DNA of 44,831 nucleotides from a virus (IMGVR_UViG_3300036940_000089); one strand, 5' to 3'. Counted from the stretch's first letter, positions 1 to 44,831 are shown. The notes: generated from the letters alone by a model not told the origin. Numbers and translations are program-made.

Positions 1-127
1 TCAAGATGCTGCTTACGCTTGCCGTCTCCAGCCCACACCTGGAATTCTTTGCACTCGCGGCATGTAGACATGCAGAACGCAAACAGTTTAGCGTGGCATC
101 TATGACACGGCGGAAGGTCGTCGTGCC
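1..127. repeat. Terminal overlap: 1-127 identical to 44705-44831
   Basis: Read directly: tcaagatgctgcttacgcttgcc...cggaaggtcgtcgtgcc occurs at both window ends, so the unique length is 44704 bp. A length of exactly 127 nt looks like an assembler k-mer circularisation overlap. A genuine short DTR cannot be excluded. Confidence 0.9.
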
Positions 128-3105: not shown

Positions 3106-3513
3106 TTATGCAGCTTCGATAATGATTTCAGTTCGCGGCCTGTCACCGTAAATCTTCCGCGCTTCCAACTCGAACACCTGGGAATCATCGCGCCAAGCCA
3201 CCCCGTTAAGACAGTCCTTGGCAAACTTCACAAGATTGTCCAAGTCCGGCTTTTTCGTATGCTGTTGCGGGGCAGAAGGTTTCAGTTTTGCCGCATTCTT
3301 GCCCGTTCCAAAGTGGCCTTTAGGTCGCGGCATGGCAAATAGCATTTTCACTTTCAGCGGCCCTTGAAAAAGGTCTTTAACTTGCCCCTTTGCGAGCAAC
3401 AACCATTTGCCTTCCTCGGTTTCCTGATCGTTGTATGTCTGCACAAATTGACCTCTCCGTGCAAAACGAGGCCTTTTCTTCGCTATAGGTGCGCCTTCAA
3501 TAACAATGTTCAT
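3106..3513 (-). CDS. rusA: RusA-family Holliday junction resolvase
   Basis: 135 aa with the RusA signature KPDLDNLVKFAKDCLNGVAWRDDSQV and an N-terminal KKRPRF segment. Confidence 0.85.
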   Translation of the reverse strand: MNIVIEGAPIAKKRPRFARRGQFVQTYNDQETEEGKWLLLAKGQVKDLFQGPLKVKMLFAMPRPKGHFGTGKNAAKLKPSAPQQHTKKPDLDNLVKFAKDCLNGVAWRDDSQVFELEARKIYGDRPRTEIIIEAA

Positions 3514-3686
3514 GCCGCCTCCTTAAACACTTCCTTGACTCGCTGCCACATGCGCTTGTATTTTCCAAGGCGCGTTTGTAGCTCCCCGATAATTTGCCGA
3601 CACCGCGCAAGCTCAGCGTCTTTCGCGTCGATCATCATGCGCTGCTCGGATACCGCTATTTCCAGGGCCGTGCATCTGTCACACAT
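3510..3686 (-). CDS. Small hypothetical protein (58 aa, coiled-coil-like)
   Basis: ATG 3686 follows AAGGAGC. Sequence MCDRCTALEIAVSEQRMMIDAKDAELARCRQIIGELQTRLGKYKRMWQRVKEVFKEAA. Its TGA overlaps the rusA ATG (ATGA). Below the ORF-track size cutoff. Confidence 0.5.
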   Translation of the reverse strand: MCDRCTALEIAVSEQRMMIDAKDAELARCRQIIGELQTRLGKYKRMWQRVKEVFKEAA

Positions 3687-3737
3687 ATGCGCTCCTTTAA
3701 TTAATTTTCCATGTTTGACGGTCTAATATCTGGATAC

Positions 3738-3753
3738 GTGGAAAATTTTCCAC
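3738..3753. promoter_or_regulatory. 16-bp perfect palindrome GTGGAAAATTTTCCAC (candidate dimeric protein-binding site)
   Basis: Read directly in the 87-nt spacer between two early genes. A half-site-like copy AATTTTCCAT recurs at 3703-3712. Confidence 0.45.
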
Positions 3754-3773
3754 CTATCACTCTGTTGTATTGC

Positions 3774-3995
3774 TTAGTCGATCTCGGTGATAGTTATTTC
3801 CACTCTCCGGCCATGCACTGATTCTGTCGTGTATCCGCAGGCGTTTATTAGTTCGCCAATGGTCATCACATCAAAATCGCTACTTACAAAGCATGTCCTT
3901 ACGCCGCTACTTGTTTGAAGAGGGTTAAAGTGTCCTTCAATCTCTGATTGGAGCTTCTCTTGGCAGTCAGAAATATAAACGGTTTCTTCCACCAT
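3774..3995 (-). CDS. Hypothetical protein (73 aa)
   Basis: ATG 3995 preceded by AAAAGGAGGAA; clean ORF. Confidence 0.6.
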   Translation of the reverse strand: MVEETVYISDCQEKLQSEIEGHFNPLQTSSGVRTCFVSSDFDVMTIGELINACGYTTESVHGRRVEITITEID

Positions 3996-4102
3996 TTCCT
4001 CCTTTTATGACCCAGCGCAATACAACCAGCACCTAAAGCGGATGGAATACGCTGGCTGCTAAATTCTCAAACGGTCACCCGCCACCGCTTAGGCTTATTC
4101 CG

Positions 4103-4390
4103 TTAGAGCCCTAGCTTCCGGATGTTTTGGAGCACTATCCGTAGGGTCGATTTTACCGGCTTGTCCTTAAATGTGGTGATAGGCCACCCGCGCTTATCCT
4201 TCTTCCACCAGGGCAGCATTTGGCGTTTGGTGCGCTCCAGTTCTTTTTGCACTGTCAGGCGCGGGGCCGTCACAGCCTCCTTCAACTCCATAGCTTGCCG
4301 ATGAGTTACGTTAATTTTGTAAAATGATAGCCAAGCATCTACAGCGGTTTGCTCTGGCCATGTGCTGCCGCAACATTGCTGTGTATCCAT
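4103..4390 (-). CDS. Hypothetical protein (95 aa)
   Basis: The track ORF starts at 4402. The second ATG (4390, MDTQQCC...) has GGAGGA 4 nt upstream, while the first has no SD. Confidence 0.55.
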   Translation of the reverse strand: MDTQQCCGSTWPEQTAVDAWLSFYKINVTHRQAMELKEAVTAPRLTVQKELERTKRQMLPWWKKDKRGWPITTFKDKPVKSTLRIVLQNIRKLGL

Positions 4391-4476
4391 ATTTTCCTCC
4401 ATGCTCTAACAAACGCATCGACCCTCGCCTTCTGCTGGACTCGCTACGCTCGCCGGTCATGCTTGATCGTTATGTG

Positions 4477-4650
4477 TCATACCTTTCGGACATACTCGCC
4501 ACTCGGAAGTTGTATATAACCGCCAACAGGCGCTTTCTCGTAGGCTTCGCACGTCCTGCATATGTTTGCAGGCTGCGAATAATGGATGTTTGGGTTACTG
4601 TCATCCTCGCAAAACTCGCGACCGCACTTTTTACAAACACATTTACGCAT
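4477..4650 (-). CDS. Small zinc-ribbon-like protein (57 aa)
   Basis: MRKCVCKKCGREFCEDD...ICRTCEAYEK contains two CxxC pairs. ATG 4650 has AGGTGG 8 nt upstream. Confidence 0.55.
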   Translation of the reverse strand: MRKCVCKKCGREFCEDDSNPNIHYSQPANICRTCEAYEKAPVGGYIQLPSGEYVRKV

Positions 4651-4688
4651 ATATTTGCCACCTAAATTCTGCACATAACCAGCCAGTC

Positions 4689-4759
4689 CAGCGGACGGAA
4701 GACCAGCGGCGGTTCTCGTTTAGGTCATCGCTGCGCCGTTATCGGCACACCGTCCGCTG
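4689..4759. repeat. 71-nt intergenic element bounded by a 10-bp inverted repeat (CAGCGGACGG...CCGTCCGCTG)
   Basis: Read directly. It has the same length and termini as the element at 5323-5393 and contains the small hairpin GCCG-ttat-CGGC. Confidence 0.7.
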
Positions 4760-4775
4760 ACCATGTTCGTTATCT

Positions 4776-5000
4776 TTACTCAGTATCCCATGGCCTATCA
4801 TCCTTACTCTGGCAGATATAGAAATCAAAGTCGCAGTCTGTTCCTTCAGGAGGAACCAGTTTGTACCCTGGCGTACATTGTGAAAAATCGTTACCGCATG
4901 GCACGAGGTCAGTAATATCACACCCGCATTCAGCCCCATTTTGCAGCCCATCAAAGTCATTCTCGTCAAGATAGTTTTTTACTATTCTCAGGCAATCCAT
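4776..5000 (-). CDS. Hypothetical Cys-rich acidic protein (74 aa)
   Basis: ATG 5000 follows GGAGCGCAAA; sequence includes ...GAECGCDITDLVPCGNDFSQCTPGY... Confidence 0.55.
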   Translation of the reverse strand: MDCLRIVKNYLDENDFDGLQNGAECGCDITDLVPCGNDFSQCTPGYKLVPPEGTDCDFDFYICQSKDDRPWDTE

Positions 5001-5038
5001 TTTGCGCTCCTATGAAGTTAAAAGATAACAAGTCCATA

Positions 5039-5073
5039 AACACGGACTCGTTTCACTCGCCGGTTATGTCGGC
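5039..5073. repeat. Intergenic repeat, A-type core AACACGGACTCGTttcACTCGCCGGTTATgtCGGC
   Basis: Near-identical copy at 5578-5609 and a diverged copy at 4437-4460 (GGACTCGCTACGCTCGCCGGTCAT). Confidence 0.7.
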
Positions 5074-5085
5074 GTTGGCTGGCTA

Positions 5086-5283
5086 TCAAGTACGCCTTAT
5101 CAGGTCATCTAATCGGTCAAGTTCTTCGCCGGTTCTGCGCGGCTTCATTGGCACTGTCGGGCCATAGTTTCTACGTTCAACAGCTCCGCAGTTTACGCAT
5201 GTACCAAGGGGTGGCAGTTTTCCTCCCCAAAACTCAGGCACTTCTACAGCGCCGCCGCATTCGCTACAGGTTCCTTTAATCAT
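5086..5283 (-). CDS. Small zinc-ribbon-like protein (65 aa)
   Basis: MIKGTCSECGG...GTCVNCGAVE has two CxxC pairs. ATG 5283 follows GGAGAGCTAA. Confidence 0.55.
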   Translation of the reverse strand: MIKGTCSECGGAVEVPEFWGGKLPPLGTCVNCGAVERRNYGPTVPMKPRRTGEELDRLDDLIRRT

Positions 5284-5322
5284 TTAGCTCTCCGATCCAC
5301 CGCGCCTGCCAACCAGCCACCG

Positions 5323-5393
5323 CAGCGGAAGGAAGACACGGTTCAGGTTTGCGTTAAAATTCGTGGTTCGCGGTCGGCCTCGCGCCTCCGCTG
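5323..5393. repeat. 71-nt intergenic element bounded by an inverted repeat (CAGCGGAAGG...CCTCCGCTG)
   Basis: Read directly. Paralogue of 4689-4759 with the same 71-nt span, the same terminal arms and a shared AAGAC...GGTTC interior start. Confidence 0.65.
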
Positions 5394-5410
5394 GCCTCAT
5401 CGTTGTTTTG

Positions 5411-5536
5411 CTATTCGTTCTCGCAACTTTCGCAGACACACTCAGGGCAGAGAACAGCCCCGCATTTTTCACATTCATGAGCATCTTCTTCCGAGAAATC
5501 GCAGCCACAATTTTCACACAATGTCGTTATGTCCAT
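5411..5536 (-). CDS. Tiny Cys-rich protein (41 aa)
   Basis: MDITTLCENCGCDFSEEDAHECEKCGAVLCPECVCESCENE. ATG 5536 follows GGAGACGAAA. Preferred over the overlapping track ORFs 5284-5517 and 5514-5708, which look non-coding. Confidence 0.45.
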   Translation of the reverse strand: MDITTLCENCGCDFSEEDAHECEKCGAVLCPECVCESCENE

Positions 5537-5577
5537 TTTCGTCTCCGTAGGATGCAGCGCAAAACAACCAGTCAATC

Positions 5578-5609
5578 AACACGGACTCGTAAACTCGCCG
5601 GTTATCGGC
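5578..5609. repeat. Intergenic repeat, A-type core (copy 2)
   Basis: AACACGGACTCGTaaACTCGCCGGTTATCGGC, compare 5039-5073. Confidence 0.7.
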
Positions 5610-5613
5610 ATCG

Positions 5614-5976
5614 TTATATCCCCAGTAGCTCGCCAACTTTTCTCCAGTCCACATATGGCCTCTCGTGTTCACCAGGATCGCGCAGTAGTGGAATACCAAG
5701 TGCAGCATCGTCTATATACATCTGACCATAGGCTTTAGGCGAGTTTGTCCATTCTTTTTGTGTCGGATTCTCGTTTACCCCATAAAGAGGTATGCCGTTT
5801 TCCTTAAACCAACTAACAGCGTCTGCAAGGTGGTCTCCATCCCGCATCGTAAATAAGATAATCTTGTTCCCCAGAACTGAGAGTTTTTTCAAATAAGGCG
5901 CAGCTCCAATATCCGCCCCCACATTTGGGTATTCATGTTTCACACACGTTCCGTCAAAATCTACACATATTTCCAT
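5614..5976 (-). CDS. HAD-superfamily phosphatase-like protein (120 aa)
   Basis: MEICVDFDGTCV carries HAD motif I (DxDxT); KAYGQMYIDD resembles motif III/IV. Start set at ATG 5976, which follows AAAGGAC. The track ORF (TTG 6129) extends through an intergenic repeat. Confidence 0.6.
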   Translation of the reverse strand: MEICVDFDGTCVKHEYPNVGADIGAAPYLKKLSVLGNKIILFTMRDGDHLADAVSWFKENGIPLYGVNENPTQKEWTNSPKAYGQMYIDDAALGIPLLRDPGEHERPYVDWRKVGELLGI

Positions 5977-6022
5977 GTTTAAGTGTCCTTTAATTTTGAT
6001 ATAACAAAACGTTAGAGTCGGA

Positions 6023-6058
6023 TTGCGCAAACTGCCGCGCAACCGGTTACCCTTGTCG
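6023..6058. repeat. Intergenic repeat, B-type: hairpin TTGCGC-AAACTGCC-GCGCAA plus CCGGTTACCCTTGTCG
   Basis: Shares the 8-nt loop and the 16-nt 3' flank exactly with 6246-6287, while the stem sequence differs and still pairs. Confidence 0.7.
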
Positions 6059-6070
6059 CTATATTTTGCT

Positions 6071-6205
6071 TCAACGCCATGCTCTAGGAGAAAGCCCCAG
6101 CAATAAGAACCATCCGAATCCACCAGCAAAAAAAGTCCAGTGTAGGGCAGCGTAGATGCAGAAAAGTATCAGCAAAACGTCAAATCCTGTCGCATATTCC
6201 CTCAT
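6071..6205 (-). CDS. Small hydrophobic (membrane) peptide, 44 aa
   Basis: MREYATGFDVLLILFCIYAALHWTFFAGGFGWFLLLGLSPRAWR. ATG 6205 lies 8 nt after AAGGAG. Confidence 0.4.
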   Translation of the reverse strand: MREYATGFDVLLILFCIYAALHWTFFAGGFGWFLLLGLSPRAWR

Positions 6206-6245
6206 GTTCATATCTCCTTAAAAAATCGGCTAACCAGCGGGTCAA

Positions 6246-6287
6246 CGCGGACCGCCGAAACTGCCCGGCGTCCGGTTACCCTTGTCG
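6246..6287. repeat. Intergenic repeat, B-type (copy 2): CGCGGACCGCCG-AAACTGCC-CGGCGTCCGG plus TTACCCTTGTCG
   Basis: Read directly; see 6023-6058. Confidence 0.7.
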
Positions 6288-6290
6288 TTG

Positions 6291-6593
6291 TCAACTACAC
6301 CGCCATATCCTGACCATACGTGCATGATTTGACGGCCTGTTGCTCTTCCGCATCCCTGCGTATACCCAACTCTTGTTTTTAAAAACAGCTCCGAAAGAGT
6401 TGCTATGAGCAGGCTGTACGCCAAGCAGGTCTAGCACCTCCCGCACTTCGTCCATCGTTACGGTGCCGTTTTTCTTGGCCAGGAGTTCGGCTATAGACCG
6501 TGCCGTGCCGACAAAATCACCTTCTTTGATTTCAATGGCGTCGAGGCCGTGCTGCTTGAGCTTCTCGCCTTTAAAGAGTCCCATCTGGTTCAT
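6291..6593 (-). CDS. Hypothetical protein (100 aa)
   Basis: ATG 6593 preceded by GTAAGGAGGAATC. Confidence 0.6.
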   Translation of the reverse strand: MNQMGLFKGEKLKQHGLDAIEIKEGDFVGTARSIAELLAKKNGTVTMDEVREVLDLLGVQPAHSNSFGAVFKNKSWVYAGMRKSNRPSNHARMVRIWRCS

Positions 6594-6602
6594 GATTCCT
6601 CC

Positions 6603-6800
6603 TTACTTGATAATCCCTCGCTCACGTTGCCGCAGGCGACGAGCCTTTTCCTTCGCACCTTGCGCCGGTCTGGTGGGATATTTGTAATTTCGCCCTGCAA
6701 GCCCTTTTGTTCTGTTGCTAAGTCCTGCGTAAACATCTTCCACTGTAGGGAATCCAAGGCTTTTAAAAACGCTTTGATAGTTCAGTTGATAGTTGTTCAC
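6603..6800 (-). CDS. Hypothetical basic protein (65 aa)
   Basis: GTG start 6800 follows GGGAGG and overlaps the upstream stop (GTGA coupling). Confidence 0.5.
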   Translation of the reverse strand: MNNYQLNYQSVFKSLGFPTVEDVYAGLSNRTKGLAGRNYKYPTRPAQGAKEKARRLRQRERGIIK

Positions 6801-11084: not shown

Positions 11085-11468
11085 ATGGAAAAAATCATTG
11101 GGAAAAGAATACTTGAGGTGAGGAAGAGAATTTCCGACCTCAATCAATCGGATTTAGGCGCTCTCTTTGGCGTGAAAAACGTCGCCGTCTCACAATGGGA
11201 GAACGGCGAAACGATGCCAAGCGTTGAGGTGTTAGAAAAGGTCGCCGACATGGCTGGCGAGTCGCTGGACTGGCTTTTCGGGAGAGAGGACAAAACCATT
11301 TCAAACGAAGAGCGCAGGCTTTTGAGGTTTTTCCGAGGAACAAGCGAAGAAGGACAAGAAATAGTGCTGGAGACCGTAGAGGAAGGTGTTAAAGGGGTCG
11401 TCTGCCATCTAAGACAAAAAAGCAAGCCGCCCTCACGCAATGGTCAGAGCGGCTCCGTGAGATATTAG
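11085..11468 (+). CDS. XRE/Cro-CI-type HTH transcriptional repressor (127 aa, no S24 peptidase domain)
   Basis: LNQSDLGALFGVKNVAVSQWENGETMPSVEVLEKVADMAGESLDWLF is a canonical HTH_3 domain. It is one of only four plus-strand genes. Confidence 0.85.
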   Translation: MEKIIGKRILEVRKRISDLNQSDLGALFGVKNVAVSQWENGETMPSVEVLEKVADMAGESLDWLFGREDKTISNEERRLLRFFRGTSEEGQEIVLETVEEGVKGVVCHLRQKSKPPSRNGQSGSVRY

Positions 11469-24562: not shown

Positions 24563-24760
24563 TTGACCTCCTCCCCTCCCTAAAGGAAGGGGATTCCCGG
24601 CATCGCTGTCGGGAGTTTTCTGCTTCAATGAGAGTTGCCAATGTCTCAAACAGACACCGGGCTTACACTCTCTCCACAGACTGTTGCGGCAAGCCCTGCC
24701 GCCAATATGTTCCTGGCCGCGTTTATATCGCGGTCATGGTTGGTTTCGCACTCCGGACAC
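24563..24760 (-). ncRNA. Predicted TnpB omega-RNA (reRNA) scaffold overlapping the tnpB 3' end and the right end of the IS
   Basis: Position follows the known TnpB rule. The minus sense contains CCCGacagcgatgCCGGG and the 8-bp hairpin CCCCTTCC-ttta-GGGAGGGG. The exact 5' and 3' ends were not determined. Confidence 0.4.
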
Positions 24761-25779
24761 GTCCACTGTCTTTTGGAAAGAGGCATGGAGGTTTCTACGT
24801 GGCCGCAGTTCGAGCAGCGCTTGCTCGATGGATACCATCTGTCGATACCTATCAGATCGCGCCCATACCACAGGGCTTTGTACTCAAGCTGTCTTAGAAA
24901 TTCCGACCAGCTTGCGTCTGAAATGGATTTGGACAGATGGCGGTTTTTCTGCATGTTCTTCACCGACAGTGTTTCAACCGCGATAGCTTGGTTCTCGCGT
25001 ATCAGCCTGGTTGAAAGTTTATGCAGAAAATCCCTGCGCGTGTCTGCGATCTTTGCATGTAAACGCGCTACGTTCTTACGTGCCTTGGCGCGGTTGTTTG
25101 AACCTTTTTGTTTCTTGCTCAGGCGGCGCTGCAAAACACCCAGGCGCTTTTCGTATTTGCGCAGGGTCCTGGGTGCTGCGACCTTTTCACCGTTCGACAG
25201 CACCGCAAAATGGCTCAAACCAAGGTCAATACCGACCTTGTTATCTGCAGCAGGTTTTGCTGCTACGCAGTCATCGCACAGAAGCGATACAAAGTACCTG
25301 CCTGCAGGGTCTTTAGAAACAGTGCAGGTTGTCACCTTGGCCGCTTTGGGGATGGTACGTGACCAGCGGATGTTTAGCGGTTCCTTCATCTTTGCCAGAA
25401 AAAGCGCCTTCCCGTCCCAGCGGAACGCGCTGGCAGCGTAGGTTGCGGACTGCCTACCATGCTTGGACTTGAAGGATGGATACTGCGCTCTTTTAGCAAA
25501 GAAGTTGTTAAATGCTGTGTGCAGATGCCGCAACGCCTGTTGGATCGGAACAGATGAAACGTCACCGAGCCATGCGTACTGCGGATCTTTCTTGAGTGCA
25601 GTGAGTAAAGAGGATGTTTCGTGATATCCGATACGCTCCTGGCGCTTAAACCATGCGTCAGTGCGCACGCGCAGCATGTAGTTATATACAAAGCGAGCAC
25701 ACCCGAACGTCTGTGCAAGAACCTTCTCTTGCTCAGGCGTTGGGTAGAATCGAAACTTATATGCTCGCTTGATATCCAT
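24646..25779 (-). CDS. tnpB: TnpB RNA-guided nuclease (IS605 OrfB)
   Basis: N-terminal YKFRFYPTPEQ. RuvC triad contexts VGIDLGLS, IAVETLSV and NHDRDINAARNI. Zinc finger CSNCGH...CPECE. Confidence 0.95.
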   Translation of the reverse strand: MDIKRAYKFRFYPTPEQEKVLAQTFGCARFVYNYMLRVRTDAWFKRQERIGYHETSSLLTALKKDPQYAWLGDVSSVPIQQALRHLHTAFNNFFAKRAQYPSFKSKHGRQSATYAASAFRWDGKALFLAKMKEPLNIRWSRTIPKAAKVTTCTVSKDPAGRYFVSLLCDDCVAAKPAADNKVGIDLGLSHFAVLSNGEKVAAPRTLRKYEKRLGVLQRRLSKKQKGSNNRAKARKNVARLHAKIADTRRDFLHKLSTRLIRENQAIAVETLSVKNMQKNRHLSKSISDASWSEFLRQLEYKALWYGRDLIGIDRWYPSSKRCSNCGHVETSMPLSKRQWTCPECETNHDRDINAARNILAAGLAATVCGESVSPVSV

Positions 25780-44691: not shown

Positions 44692-44831
44692 TTACCCCGC
44701 TTTATCAAGATGCTGCTTACGCTTGCCGTCTCCAGCCCACACCTGGAATTCTTTGCACTCGCGGCATGTAGACATGCAGAACGCAAACAGTTTAGCGTGG
44801 CATCTATGACACGGCGGAAGGTCGTCGTGCC
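44692..44831 (-). CDS. 3' end of the junction-spanning gene (duplicate copy of 1-127 plus the last 13 nt)
   Basis: Same frame as feature 1-335. It reads ...KRKQHLDKAG and stops at TAA 44694-44692. Confidence 0.6.
   Translation of the reverse strand, partial: HDDLPPCHRCHAKLFAFCMSTCRECKEFQVWAGDGKRKQHLDKAG
44705..44831. repeat. Terminal overlap copy (identical to 1-127)
   Basis: Direct comparison of the two window ends. Confidence 0.9.

What the first reader, a model, noticed from the sequence alone, without database searches (positions are those of the whole stretch)
3996..6290. Family of structured intergenic repeats punctuating the small early genes
Almost every spacer between the tiny early ORFs carries a related element. 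(a) Two 71-nt units are bounded by 10-bp inverted repeats: CAGCGGACGG...CCGTCCGCTG at 4689-4759 and CAGCGGAAGG...CCTCCGCTG at 5323-5393. (b) Three copies share the core GGACTCG-N4-5-CTCGCCGGT(T/C)AT (4437-4460, 5039-5073, 5578-5609), which includes a GCCG-ttat-CGGC mini-hairpin. (c) Two hairpins (6023-6058, 6246-6287) share an identical 8-nt loop AAACTGCC and an identical 16-nt flank CCGGTTACCCTTGTCG. Their stems differ in sequence but both still pair, which is compensatory-looking change. (d) The motif AACCAG (CTGGTT in mRNA sense) recurs at 4024, 4677, 5311, 5566 and 6232, about 20-40 nt upstream of the next start codon. None of these elements has a U-tract, so they are not ordinary terminators. 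They could be RNA processing or stability elements, binding sites for a phage regulator, or miniature mobile repeats.
Basis: seen in the sequence. Interest (0 to 1): 0.65.

Follow-up and report, generated by a model that had tools for sequence, protein, structure and literature searches.

The report
Integron gene-cassette array inside a phage
The repeated hairpins between the small early genes are integron attC recombination sites, so this complete phage genome carries eight swappable one-gene cassettes, each gene reading in the opposite direction to a classical bacterial cassette.

Summary
All four motif groups sit at the stated coordinates and exceed chance. They are one family, not four.

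Eight consecutive spacers (window 4020-6293, minus strand) are integron attC sites. Each has the standard layout: R box RYYYAAC, 5-6 nt unpaired spacer, L box, variable loop, L box with an extra-helical G, spacer, GTTRRRY.

- A covariance model built only from bacterial integron attC sites finds three of them (E 9e-6 to 7e-4). A second-round model finds all eight and nothing else in 44.8 kb.
- Homology with other viral contigs switches exactly at the AAC triplet.
- Contigs from other metagenomes carry deletions of 338, 1005, 1638 and 1956 nt. Each equals a whole number of cassettes.
- The genome is circular and complete and has no integrase, so it is a CALIN. Related phage contigs, one from the same sample, encode integron integrases just downstream of such arrays.

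Unlike classical cassettes, the genes lie on the attC bottom strand, with each attC upstream of its gene.

attC clusters in phages are already published (Qi et al. 2023). This is therefore a new variant of a known kind.

The parts
Sense-strand parse: UGACAAC-GACAAG-GGUAACC-[variable loop]-GcGUUgACC-CGCUG-GUUAGCC. The stop codon TGA of the upstream gene lies inside the R box. The crossover AA|C is at 6289,6288|6287.
   Evidence: R1 (bacterial attC model) gives E 7e-4; R2 gives E 6.7e-12. Homology with L016, L013, L012 and L075 begins at the AAC.
5999..6064 (-). attC site S2 (type c). It is degenerate: the R box reads AUAUAGC and the 3' L-box half is replaced. The crossover position is 6060,6059|6058.
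   Evidence: R2 gives E 1e-5; R1 gives E 1.5. The metagenome joint 4100>6057 ends here.
5562..5619 (-). attC site S3 (type b). Parse: AUAUAAC-GAUGCC-GAUAACC-[GGCGAGUUUACGAGUCC]-GuGUUgAUU-GACUG-GUUGUUU. AA|C is at 5615,5614|5613.
   Evidence: R1 gives E 9.3e-6; R2 gives E 6.1e-12. Junction J1 is shown.
5307..5408 (-). attC site S4 (type a, long variable loop). The R box is AAACAAC, with AA|C at 5404,5403|5402.
   Evidence: R2 gives E 3.4e-7. The joint 3763>5402 is.
5023..5080 (-). attC site S5 (type b). The R box is AGCCAAC, with AA|C at 5076,5075|5074.
   Evidence: R1 gives E 2.9e-5; R2 gives E 1.6e-11. Contig ends fall at 5076.
4673..4775 (-). attC site S6 (type a, 71-nt unit plus boxes). Parse: AGAUAAC-GAACAU-GGUCAGC-[long loop]-GCUGgACU-GGCUG-GUUAUGU. 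AA|C is at 4771,4770|4769.
   Evidence: R2 gives E 1.6e-10. Joints at 4768/4769 appear.
4404..4475 (-). attC site S7 (type b, the most divergent). The R box is ACAUAAC, with AA|C at 4471,4470|4469.
   Evidence: R2 gives E 7.4e-4. Contig pieces break at 4466-4472.
The stem is AAGCGG/CCGCUU. The R box is CUCUAAC, with AA|C at 4104,4103|4102.
   Evidence: R2 gives E 2.2e-8; R1 gives a partial match at E 0.67. The joints 3763>4102 and 4100>6057 are.
3687..3773 (-). Terminal site S9. It consists of AUACAAC (AA|C at 3766,3765|3764), the palindrome GAUAGGUGGAAAAUUUUCCACGUAUC, then AUUAGAC..AUGG..UAAUU. It is not an attC by the models. It acts as the fixed end of the array and may be an attI-like relic.
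   Evidence: Neither R1 nor R2 hits it. Four different cassettes abut it at the AAC (window, L010, L019, L003). All deletion joints start at 3763-3766. It resembles the motif upstream of phage intI genes.
6059..6287 (-). Cassette 1: attC S1 plus a 46-aa gene (6071-6211).
   Evidence: Gene map. Boundaries.
5614..6058 (-). Cassette 2: attC S2 plus a 120-aa gene (5614-5976). The gene matches PHROG 1238, annotated 'phosphoheptose isomerase'.
   Evidence: PHROG match. Homology with L003 ends exactly at 5613.
5403..5613 (-). Cassette 3: attC S3 plus a 41-aa Cys-rich gene (5411-5536).
   Evidence: Found at 99.5-100% identity behind three different upstream genes (window, L019/L029, L028). Both ends fall at AAC.
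5075..5402 (-). Cassette 4: attC S4 plus a 65-aa Cys-rich gene (5086-5283).
   Evidence: L010 holds it at 99.7% identity between other neighbours.
4770..5074 (-). Cassette 5: attC S5 plus a 74-aa gene (4776-5000).
   Evidence: The gene matches L012 at 84% identity, ending at the AAC.
4470..4769 (-). Cassette 6: attC S6 plus a ~57-aa Cys-rich gene (4477-4650).
   Evidence: In run X9 this cassette follows the 73-aa gene directly (joint 4768>3764). A homologue of the gene is present in L079.
4103..4469 (-). Cassette 7: attC S7 plus a 95-aa gene (4103-4390).
   Evidence: Assembly unitigs 4102-4472 in X21, X22 and X23, and 4102-4457 in X4, correspond to this one cassette.
3765..4102 (-). Cassette 8: attC S8 plus a 73-aa gene (3774-3995). 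Its length is 338 nt.
   Evidence: It is deleted to the nucleotide (338 nt) in X4 and X21-X23.

Best explanation
The eight spacers from 6293 to 4020 are attC recombination sites of integron gene cassettes. The ninth (3687-3773) is the fixed end of the array. The phage carries an array of eight one-gene cassettes and no integrase of its own, which makes it a CALIN (cluster of attC sites lacking an integrase).

How it works:
- When the DNA is single-stranded, one strand of each attC (the 'bottom' strand) folds into a hairpin.
- The hairpin has two paired boxes (R: RYYYAAC/GTTRRRY; L: for example GGTAACC/GTTgACC), an unpaired central spacer, extra-helical bases and a variable loop.
- An integron integrase (IntI), supplied by the host or by a related phage, cuts between A and C of the AAC triplet and exchanges strands with another attC or an attI.
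- This excises, inserts or reorders whole cassettes.

Here the bottom strand is also the coding strand. Each cassette therefore reads, in the gene's sense, C-attC-SD-gene-...AA. The attC precedes its gene, and the array is read through by the phage's single-direction early transcription.

Shown: the architecture and its covariation, membership by a model built from bacterial attC sites, the strand, the cassette boundaries, nucleotide-precise cassette deletions and reorderings in natural populations, absence of intI here, and its presence in relatives.

Inferred: which integrase acts, when the DNA is single-stranded, that the genes are expressed by read-through, and any extra effect of the transcribed hairpins on translation or mRNA stability.
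For: 1. Architecture. Manual parses and model alignments give R(7)-spacer(5-6)-L(7)-loop-L(8, extra G)-spacer(5)-R(7) for S1-S8.

2. Membership.
- Model R1 was built from 54 attC sites of bacterial genomes.
- Four loci hit by the same pattern scan lie next to an IntI-like gene: L221, L235, L250 and L253. L221 and L235 were scored against TIGR02249 at 461.9 and 456.5 bits (cutoff 265).
- Dense arrays such as Silanimonas, with 11 copies in 4.8 kb, are also present.
- R1 hits S3, S5 and S1 full-length at E 9e-6, 3e-5 and 7e-4, all on the minus strand.
- R2, built from R1 hits in other viral contigs, finds eight full-length sites, all minus strand and all within 4020-6293. The next best match has E 3.9.

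3. Covariation.
- 88.2% of cells are paired against 70.7% in shuffles.
- 18 of 21 pairs carry double changes.
- Slid controls give 26-42%. The bacterial set gives 90.9% against 78.4%.

4. Boundaries. Identity with other contigs switches exactly at xAAC in six junctions. Cassette S3 plus its 41-aa gene is 99.5-100% identical behind three different genes.

5. Population data. Contig joints 3763>4102, 3763>4769, 3763>5402 and 4100>6057 skip 338, 1005, 1638 and 1956 nt. These equal 1, 3, 5 and 6 cassettes. A reordering (4768>3764) is also seen. The joints occur in aquatic and subsurface metagenomes and in metatranscriptome assemblies.

6. Integrase context.
- No tyrosine recombinase is found in the circular 44,704-bp genome.
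- L079, from the same metagenome, has an attC array followed by intI (294.9 bits).
- Ten further viral contigs hold IntI at 59-71% identity. Nine of the ten have attC sites upstream on the same strand.
- Four of these contigs were scanned: L323, L329 and L332 carry terminase, portal or capsid genes, and L324 a primase.

7. Strand.
- The extra-helical G sits on the 3' arm of the sense strand.
- The crossover is in the 5' box of the sense strand.
- In bacterial integrons the same strand is the intI-sense strand, and ORFs are mostly antisense to it (94 against 16). In viral loci ORFs are sense (30 against 9; 23 against 6 intervals).
- G.T outnumbers A.C by 39 to 13 on this strand.

8. Literature. 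The attC features and bottom-strand selectivity are described in PMC8946536. attC clusters in phages recombined by IntI1 are reported in PMC9892861.
Against: - No integrase is encoded in this genome, and none was shown to act on these sites. Recombination is inferred from its products.
- IntegronFinder and HattCI, the field's standard detectors, were not available. My models are surrogates.
- R2 includes near-identical copies of S1, S3 and S4 from related contigs, so its E-values for those three are not independent. R1's are independent.
- With R1, only three of the eight sites reach significance.
- S2 has AGC instead of AAC and a replaced 3' half. S7 is weak. S9 does not fit.
- The L boxes (AACCGG, CAGCGG) differ from the TAAGCGG type that dominates the bacterial set.
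- The joints come from assembled contigs (Logan), not raw reads. Chimeric assembly at repeats could create some of them, although it would not make deletion lengths equal to whole cassettes at non-identical attC sites.
- The gene orientation is opposite to the classical cassette.
Confidence: 0.88

Rival explanations
1. The hairpins are primarily RNA elements in the polycistronic early mRNA. They would act as RNase III/E processing sites, 3' stabilisers or translational operators, as in the T7 early region. Their resemblance to attC would be incidental.
For: - They lie on the transcribed strand, directly between a stop codon and the next Shine-Dalgarno sequence.
- G.U-compatible changes outnumber A.C by 39 to 13 on that strand.
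- The region is present in metatranscriptome assemblies.
- S5 resembles a weak terminator.
Against: - The same architecture and box sequences occur in bacterial integrons, where they are antisense to the cassette genes and sit beside IntI.
- The conserved primary sequence (AAC, GTT, extra-helical G) has no RNA rationale.
- Homology and deletion breakpoints fall on the AAC to the nucleotide.
- Folding energies are not better than shuffles for most spacers, and there is no Rfam match.

A secondary RNA effect is not excluded.
Confidence: 0.04
2. They are conserved linker sequences that promote gene shuffling by homologous recombination through the phage's own Rad52-like annealing protein, as proposed for the PeSL elements of T4-type phages. 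No site-specific recombinase would be involved.
For: - The phage encodes a Rad52-family protein, NinB and RusA next to the array.
- Parts of the elements are shared between spacers and between phages.
- S2 looks like a hybrid with a replaced 3' half.
Against: - At junctions J1-J6 there is no shared sequence upstream of the AAC, so no homology is available to recombine.
- The attC sites joined by the deletions belong to different types, for example S9 with S8, S6 or S4, and S8 with S2. The joints still fall within the 2-5 shared letters at AAC/GTT.
- The extra-helical bases, unpaired spacer and covarying stems are unexplained by this model.
- Relatives carry IntI.
Confidence: 0.05
3. The sites are real attC sites, but the array is an inert relic. 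It would be a fragment of an integron captured once, for example by illegitimate recombination, and no longer recombining in this phage lineage.
For: - The complete genome has no intI.
- S2, S7 and S9 are degenerate.
- The near-identical arrays in the window and in L001, from two samples, show no rearrangement.
Against: - Several different cassette orders and precise deletions coexist in other communities.
- The same cassettes sit in different neighbourhoods in related contigs at 99-100% identity, which implies recent movement.
- A contig from the same sample carries shared cassettes together with intI.
Confidence: 0.08

Closest known systems
Integron attC sites and gene cassettes; clusters of attC sites lacking an integrase (CALIN)
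   Same: - R boxes RYYYAAC/GTTRRRY, an L box with an extra-helical G, an unpaired central spacer, and a variable terminal loop of very different lengths (here about 17-60 nt).
- One ORF per interval, and all sites in one orientation.
- Crossover at AA|C (= G|TT).
- Strong structural covariation with little sequence conservation outside the boxes.
- The same strand relation to intI in relatives (features as described in PMC8946536).
   Different: - The cassette genes are on the attC bottom strand, so each attC lies upstream of its gene. The genes run the same way as intI in relatives.
- In classical integrons the genes are on the top strand, downstream of Pc (bacterial loci 94 antisense against 16 sense; viral 30 sense against 9 antisense).
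- There is no intI and no recognisable Pc/attI platform in this genome.
- The L-box sequences are AACCGG or CAGCGG rather than TAAGCGG.
attC clusters and integrons reported in phage genomes (Qi et al. 2023, Front Microbiol, PMC9892861)
   Same: A phage genome carrying several attC sites without an integrase. That study showed that five of six phage attC sites tested are recombined by IntI1 at G|TT.
   Different: - That survey found 3 complete integrons, 1 In0 and 17 CALINs in 10,705 isolate phage genomes, and its minimum was two attC sites per cluster.
- I found no discussion there of genes lying on the bottom strand.
- This case has eight sites in a complete environmental podovirus-like genome.
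- It also has population-level cassette deletions and relatives with a distinct phage-borne IntI group.
PeSL (promoter-early stem-loop) cassettes of T4-type phages. This comparison rests on my own knowledge and was not checked in the paper library.
   Same: Repeated stem-loop-containing intergenic elements flank small early genes of unknown function. They are associated with modular shuffling of those genes between related phages.
   Different: - PeSLs carry an early promoter and are thought to act through homologous recombination.
- Here no promoter consensus is found.
- Breakpoints are site-specific, at a 3-nt core without flanking homology.
- The elements match integron attC models.
RNase III processing hairpins between T7 early genes. 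This comparison rests on my own knowledge.
   Same: Hairpins of about 60 nt with internal loops lie between consecutive early genes on the transcribed strand.
   Different: There is no conserved AAC/GTT core, no association with an integrase, and no cassette mobility in T7. There is no evidence of RNA cleavage here.

Membership tests
Integron attC site | An imperfect palindrome bounded by the R boxes RYYYAAC ... GTTRRRY, with invariant AAC and GTT triplets. | tested here: met
   AAC and GTT are present in 7 of the 8 sites; S2 has AGC. AAC/GTT are invariant in 54 bacterial and 87 viral relatives, apart from 3 U.G pairs at the C-G position. The purine/pyrimidine pattern of the outer four bases is only loosely kept.
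Integron attC site | L boxes with extra-helical base(s) on one strand, an unpaired central spacer of about 5-6 nt, and a variable terminal structure. | tested here: met
   The model alignments place an unpaired G between the L-box half-stems, spacers of 5-6 nt, and loops of very different lengths. These features are defined in PMC8946536.
Integron attC site | Recognised by an attC covariance model. | tested here: met
   A surrogate model R1, built from bacterial integron attC sites only, gives S3 at 9.3e-6, S5 at 2.9e-5 and S1 at 6.7e-4. S8 and S2 are below significance. The second-round model R2 finds 8 of 8. The IntegronFinder/HattCI models themselves were not available.
Integron gene cassette array | Sites in one orientation, separated by single ORFs. 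Cassette boundaries at G|TT (AA|C on the bottom strand). | tested here: met
   Eight sites lie on one strand with one gene each. Six comparative junctions fall at the AAC. Deletions of exactly 1, 3, 5 and 6 cassettes are seen.
Integron gene cassette array | Cassette ORF on the attC top strand, with the attC downstream of its ORF (classical orientation, expressed from Pc). | tested here: not met
   ORFs are on the bottom-strand side and the attC is upstream of its gene.
Complete integron | An integron integrase gene (TIGR02249) with attI adjacent to the array. | tested here: not met
   No tyrosine recombinase was found by Pfam scans of the unknown ORFs of 250 aa or more, a six-frame motif scan, or tblastn with the L079 IntI. 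The array is therefore a CALIN. Relatives L079, L031 and L139 do carry IntI above the cutoff.
Integron attC site | Recombined as folded single-stranded DNA by IntI, with the bottom strand far more active than the top strand. | not testable with these tools
   This needs an attC x attI conjugation assay. The only indirect support is the G.T over A.C excess on the predicted bottom strand and the recombination products.
Intrinsic terminators / sigma-70 promoters | A GC-rich hairpin plus a U tract, or -35/-10 hexamers with 16-18 nt spacing. | tested here: not met
   No minus-strand promoter-like site falls in any spacer. The scan found 4 sites against 3.8 expected. Only S5 and S1 give weak terminator-like matches (9 found against 4.8 expected).
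Known RNA families (Rfam 15), tRNA/tmRNA | A match at or near the family's gathering score. | tested here: not met
   There are no matches at gathering score in the window. The only match at E<=5 in 3500-6700 is a chance snoRNA hit inside a gene. No tRNA was found.

The most novel reading that the evidence does not exclude
Environmental phages may carry their own lineage of integrons, adapted to phage genome architecture. Its features would be:
- a distinct IntI group encoded next to replication or packaging genes;
- a conserved attI-like site (xAAC|AT..TTA..GCCAC.ATGGC..TAA) 40-75 nt upstream of intI;
- a pool of cassettes whose genes lie on the attC bottom strand.

With that arrangement, arrays are expressed by read-through of the phage's one-directional early transcription, and the recombinogenic strand sits on the G-rich (putative lagging-template) side.

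The window phage would be an intI-less member that trades accessory early genes in trans. A further, less likely extension is this: because the phage looks temperate (it has a cI-like repressor) yet has no integrase, its attC sites might also let a host integron integrase capture the whole genome as a giant cassette.
Probability: 0.4. Interest if true: 0.8.

Novelty: new variant of a known kind. Interest (0 to 1): 0.7.

Why it matters
Integrons are known as bacterial devices for capturing and shuffling genes, and phages have been only a marginal footnote (21 of 10,705 genomes in the one survey found).

In this case a complete phage genome devotes about 2.5 kb of its early region to eight attC-bounded cassettes. 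The same cassettes are found reshuffled, to the nucleotide, in several environments. Relatives encode the integrase themselves.

This offers a concrete site-specific mechanism for part of the mosaicism of small, fast-evolving early genes. These are the class that often encodes host-takeover and anti-defence functions.

The opposite gene orientation implies that phage and bacterial cassette pools are linked by the same recombination chemistry but differ in expression: a cassette moved between the two would arrive antisense. The orientation also matters for annotation. Integron finders that expect genes on the top strand, and gene callers that skip 40-70-aa ORFs, will misread such arrays.

Tried and rejected
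- **Rfam** at gathering and permissive thresholds, and ARAGORN, found nothing relevant.
- **The sigma-70 promoter and terminator scan** showed no enrichment and no promoter in the spacers.
- **Single-sequence RNA folding of the nine spacers** mostly gave energies not better than shuffles, so folding energy is not used as evidence.
- **Megablast and blastn of the region against 50,697 phage records** found no relative. The only match was the 120-aa gene, at about 72% identity, to Klebsiella and Aeromonas jumbo-phage genes.
- **BLAST of a 59-nt consensus attC against the same collection** gave only chance hits.
- **Ideas considered and dropped:**
  - Phage-RNA-polymerase or N4-type hairpin promoters: no RNA polymerase gene was seen among the large ORFs scanned.
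  - sigma-54 promoters: the spacing is wrong.
  - nut/boxB-like antitermination sites, IHF sites, REP/BIME and MITEs: none explains the AAC/GTT cores or the integrase linkage.
- **ORFs next to two bacterial arrays (L243, L245, L230)** gave no IntI within the 8-kb loci. IntI was then found in other loci by a motif scan.
- **The exact-16-mer scan** returned 5 chance matches among its 13 hits.
- **Three joints do not fall on an AAC** (3766>6000, 5404>5034, 6194>6293) and remain unexplained. They may reflect cassettes absent from the window.

Full report
**Observation.**
- The composite motifs exceed chance. AACCGGCGAG-N5-CGAGTCC has 2 matches, and 0 of 100 shuffles reached 2. TCCGCTG-N3-TGGCTGGTT has 4 matches, and 0 of 100 shuffles reached 4.
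- The genes here are on the minus strand. A simple SD-aware ORF map gives ten small genes between 6593 and 3510.
- These genes are separated by nine consecutive spacers of 77-127 nt: S1 6212-6290, S2 5977-6070, S3 5537-5613, S4 5284-5410, S5 5001-5085, S6 4652-4775, S7 4391-4476, S8 3996-4102 and S9 3687-3773.
- Neighbouring genes outside this stretch overlap or abut.

**The genome.**
- The window is a JGI metagenome contig. Its first and last 127 nt are identical, so it is a circular, complete genome of 44,704 bp.
- It is a podovirus-like phage with portal, terminase, capsid GP7 and tail proteins. It has no close relative among 50,697 deposited phages.
- Its early region encodes a cI-like HTH repressor, Rad52-like protein, NinB, RecA-dependent nuclease, RusA, SSB, a helicase-methyltransferase and DnaB.
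- It occurs in oil-field metagenomes. Parts of the region also occur in aquatic, subsurface and wastewater metagenomes.

**What the elements are not.**
- There is no Rfam family and no tRNA.
- No sigma-70-type promoter falls in any spacer, and terminator-like sites are only marginally enriched.
- Folding energies of the spacers as RNA are mostly no better than shuffles.

**One family.** Exact-pattern scans of IMG/VR with the three motif types returned many contigs. Read in the gene's sense, all copies share one formula:
- a stop codon inside xYYTAAC;
- 5-6 variable bases;
- a 7-nt box (TTAAGCG, GGTAACC or GGTCAGC);
- a variable hairpin;
- the complementary box interrupted by one extra G (CGCTTgAA, GTTgACC or GCTGgAC);
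- 5 bases, often ending CTG;
- GTTAGGC or GTTATGC;
- then 10-25 nt, a Shine-Dalgarno sequence and the next ATG.

**Link to integrons.**
- The commonest variant (TAACG-N6-8-TAAGCGG...TCCGCTTGA) is also abundant in bacterial genomes. These are mainly Xanthomonadales, Burkholderiales and Rhodocyclales.
- There it forms dense arrays, for example 11 copies in 4.8 kb of a Silanimonas contig.
- It also lies next to integron integrases. L221 scores 461.9 bits and L235 456.5 bits on TIGR02249 (cutoff 265).
- R/L boxes, an unpaired central spacer, extra-helical bases and a variable terminal structure are the defining features of attC sites (PMC8946536).

**Model searches.**
- I built covariance model R1 from 54 non-redundant bacterial copies only. 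In that set, 90.9% of cells are paired against 78.4% in shuffles.
- Searched over the whole window without filters, R1 finds S3 (E 9.3e-6), S5 (2.9e-5) and S1 (6.7e-4). All are full-length and on the minus strand. S8 and S2 come next, at E 0.67 and 1.5.
- R1 finds 89 sites in 81 viral loci, often as same-strand arrays of up to 13.
- Model R2, built from those 89 sites, finds eight full-length sites in the window. All are on the minus strand, all lie within 4020-6293, and their E-values run from 6e-12 to 7e-4. The next best match anywhere has E 3.9.
- R2 is not independent for S1, S3 and S4, because near-identical copies are in its seed.
- In the viral alignment, 18 of 21 pairs show changes on both sides. 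Pairing is 88.2%, against 70.7% in shuffles and 26-42% with slid partners.

**Cassette boundaries.**
- BLAST of the region against all fetched loci shows blocks of 84-100% identity that begin and end at the AAC triplet of the 5' R box.
- The aligned junctions make this explicit. S3 plus the 41-aa gene (5613-5403) is 99.5-100% identical in the window, L019/L029 and L028. It is preceded by three unrelated genes, and identity starts at TAA|C.
- L003 shares the upstream 120-aa gene up to ...ATATAAC and then continues with an S9-type site.
- L010 shares S4 plus the 65-aa gene (5402-5075) and then continues with a type-c attC instead of S5.
- No sequence is shared on the far side of any junction, which argues against homologous recombination.

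**Independent population evidence.**
- In the aquatic run X4, contigs join 3763 to 4102, 3763 to 5402, and 4100 to 6057. A subsurface run (X9) places cassette 6 directly after the 73-aa gene (4768>3764).
- Two of these joints (3763>4102, 4100>6057) recur in metatranscriptome assemblies of the same study, together with a further joint, 3763 to 4769.
- The skipped lengths are 338, 1005, 1638 and 1956 nt. These equal cassette 8, cassettes 6-8, cassettes 4-8 and cassettes 2-7, computed from the AA|C positions.
- The 2-5 ambiguous letters at each joint are the shared AAC/GTT core.
- Contig ends cluster at 3766, 4102, 4768-4772, 5076, 5404, 5613-5618 and 6293.
- Three other joints (3766>6000, 5404>5034, 6194>6293) do not fit and are unexplained.
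- These data come from assembled contigs, not raw reads.

**Strand and orientation.** Three lines of evidence agree that the gene-sense strand is the attC bottom (recombinogenic) strand.
- The extra-helical G is on the 3' arm of the sense strand. From my recollection of the aadA1 and VCR sites, that is where it sits in bottom strands. The recollection was not checked against a sequence here.
- The crossover lies in the 5' box of the sense strand. This corresponds to G|TT of R' on the other strand.
- In bacterial integrons the same strand is the intI-sense strand, upstream of intI (L221, L235, L250, L253). ORFs there are mostly antisense to it (94 against 16). In viral loci they are mostly sense (30 against 9). 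In seven viral arrays the longest inter-attC ORF is on the attC strand in 23 intervals against 6.

G.T mismatches outnumber A.C by 39 to 13 on this strand, and by 23 to 6 in the bacterial set. A phage cassette therefore reads C-attC-SD-gene-AA, with the attC upstream of its gene. This is the reverse of the classical cassette.

**Integrase.**
- The window has none. Pfam scans of the unknown ORFs of 250 aa or more, a six-frame scan for the HxLRHxxAT motif, and tblastn with the L079 IntI are all negative.
- The only oddity found is a TnpB-like gene.
- Relatives do have an integrase. L079 is a 5.6-kb contig from the same metagenome. It shares the S1 attC with the window, followed there by a different, longer gene. 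In gene direction it carries four attC-type sites and then an integron integrase (294.9 bits), followed by a DnaC-like loader.
- Ten further viral contigs of 4-52 kb encode IntI at 59-71% identity. In nine of the ten, attC sites were found on the same strand, upstream of intI.
- Four of these contigs were scanned. L323, L329 and L332 carry terminase, portal or capsid genes, and L324 a primase, within the fetched loci.
- Every one of these intI genes is preceded, 40-75 nt upstream, by a conserved xAAC|AT..TTA..GCCAC.ATGGC..TAA motif. I take this as a candidate attI.
- The window's S9 has the AAC, a palindrome and then ATTAGAC-N8-ATGG-N6-TAATT. It acts as the fixed end of the array and partly resembles that motif, so it may be a relic. 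This point is weak.

**Mechanism.**
- Shown: the architecture, covariation, strand, boundaries, precise deletions and reorderings, and the integrase context.
- Inferred, by analogy with studied integrons (PMC8946536):
  - the folded bottom strand is bound by IntI supplied in trans and cut between A and C of AAC;
  - attC x attC exchange excises or inserts cassettes;
  - resolution needs replication.
- Also inferred: the genes are expressed by read-through of early transcription, since each cassette brings its own SD but no promoter.
- The minus strand is G-rich throughout. If that reflects the leading strand, the bottom strands sit on the lagging-strand template. In Vibrio cholerae this arrangement greatly raises cassette excision (PMC13108822). 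This is speculation for a phage.

**Cassette content.** The genes are tiny (41-120 aa). Three are Cys-rich zinc-ribbon-like, one is a probable membrane peptide, and one belongs to PHROG 1238. The rest have no family. This is typical of both integron cassettes and phage early genes.

**Comparison and novelty.**
- The only paper found on the topic (Qi et al. 2023, PMC9892861) reports 3 integrons, 1 In0 and 17 CALINs among 10,705 phage genomes. It shows that IntI1 recombines phage attC sites. The kind is therefore known.
- Four things go beyond it:
  - the size and regularity of this array in a complete genome;
  - the consistent placement of genes on the bottom strand;
  - the direct population evidence of cassette turnover;
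  - the group of phage-encoded IntI genes with a shared upstream site.

I rate it a new variant of a known kind.

Noticed in passing
window 24646-25779 (-): A 377-aa TnpB-like protein (HTH_OrfB_IS605 + OrfB_IS605 + Cas12f1-like TNB domain) sits among the structural genes of the phage. No TnpA partner was identified.
   Followed up: partly
window 1-127 and 44705-44831: The first and last 127 nt are identical. The contig is therefore a circular assembly and the genome (44,704 bp) is complete.
   Followed up: yes
window 11085-11468 (+): The only clear plus-strand gene is a 127-aa HTH_3 (cI-like) repressor. No integrase, serine recombinase or partition gene was seen, so this is a temperate-looking phage without an obvious way to lysogenise.
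   Followed up: partly
window 3687-3773; L322 (=L079), L323-L332, 40-140 nt upstream of intI: Ten phage intI genes share an upstream motif, xAAC|AT..(A/C)TTA..GCCAC.ATGGC.GT.TAA, which is a candidate attI. The window's last spacer S9 has an AAC, a 26-nt palindrome (GATAGGTGGAAAATTTTCCACGTATC) and a partial match to that motif, but no intI follows.
   Followed up: partly
L079 (IMGVR_UViG_3300043112_000046), whole 5582 nt: This contig comes from the same metagenome as the window. It carries the window's S1 attC followed by a different, longer gene, a homologue of the 57-aa Cys-rich gene, a 239-aa protein that looks PP-loop-like by eye (no NCBIfam match; not tested further), and then an integron integrase and a DnaC-like loader.
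   Followed up: partly
L334 11589-12427 and L336 13045-13749: Two viral contigs carry an IntI about 40% identical to the L079 IntI. Their attC arrays lie on the opposite strand, beyond the 3' end of intI, which is a different topology from the other phage integrons.
   Followed up: no
window 5578-5598, 5044-5065, 4437-4458; also bacterial attC: The loop of the type-b sites is CGAG-N4-5-CGAG. It could close with tandem G.A pairs. The same motif (GAGCGAAGCGAG) recurs in bacterial and other viral attC loops. Its significance is unknown.
   Followed up: no
L326 3812-3942: One attC in an intI-bearing phage contig has a 131-nt span whose variable loop contains a Shine-Dalgarno sequence and an ATG. 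An ORF therefore seems to start inside the attC.
   Followed up: no
window 5974-6090 and 6208-6324, run X1: In the run that holds the whole region, assembly depth over the S2 and S1 attC sites (884 and 680) is 2-2.6 times that of the flanks (339-389). In X4 the 120-aa gene is absent while S1 reaches 1732. The same attC types sit in other contexts in these communities.
   Followed up: no
window 3766>6000, 5404>5034, 6194>6293 (runs X4, X21-X23): Three contig joints do not fall on an AAC crossover and are unexplained. They may reflect cassettes or gene variants that are not in the window (the L016/L079-type gene diverges at 6193), or assembly artefacts.
   Followed up: no
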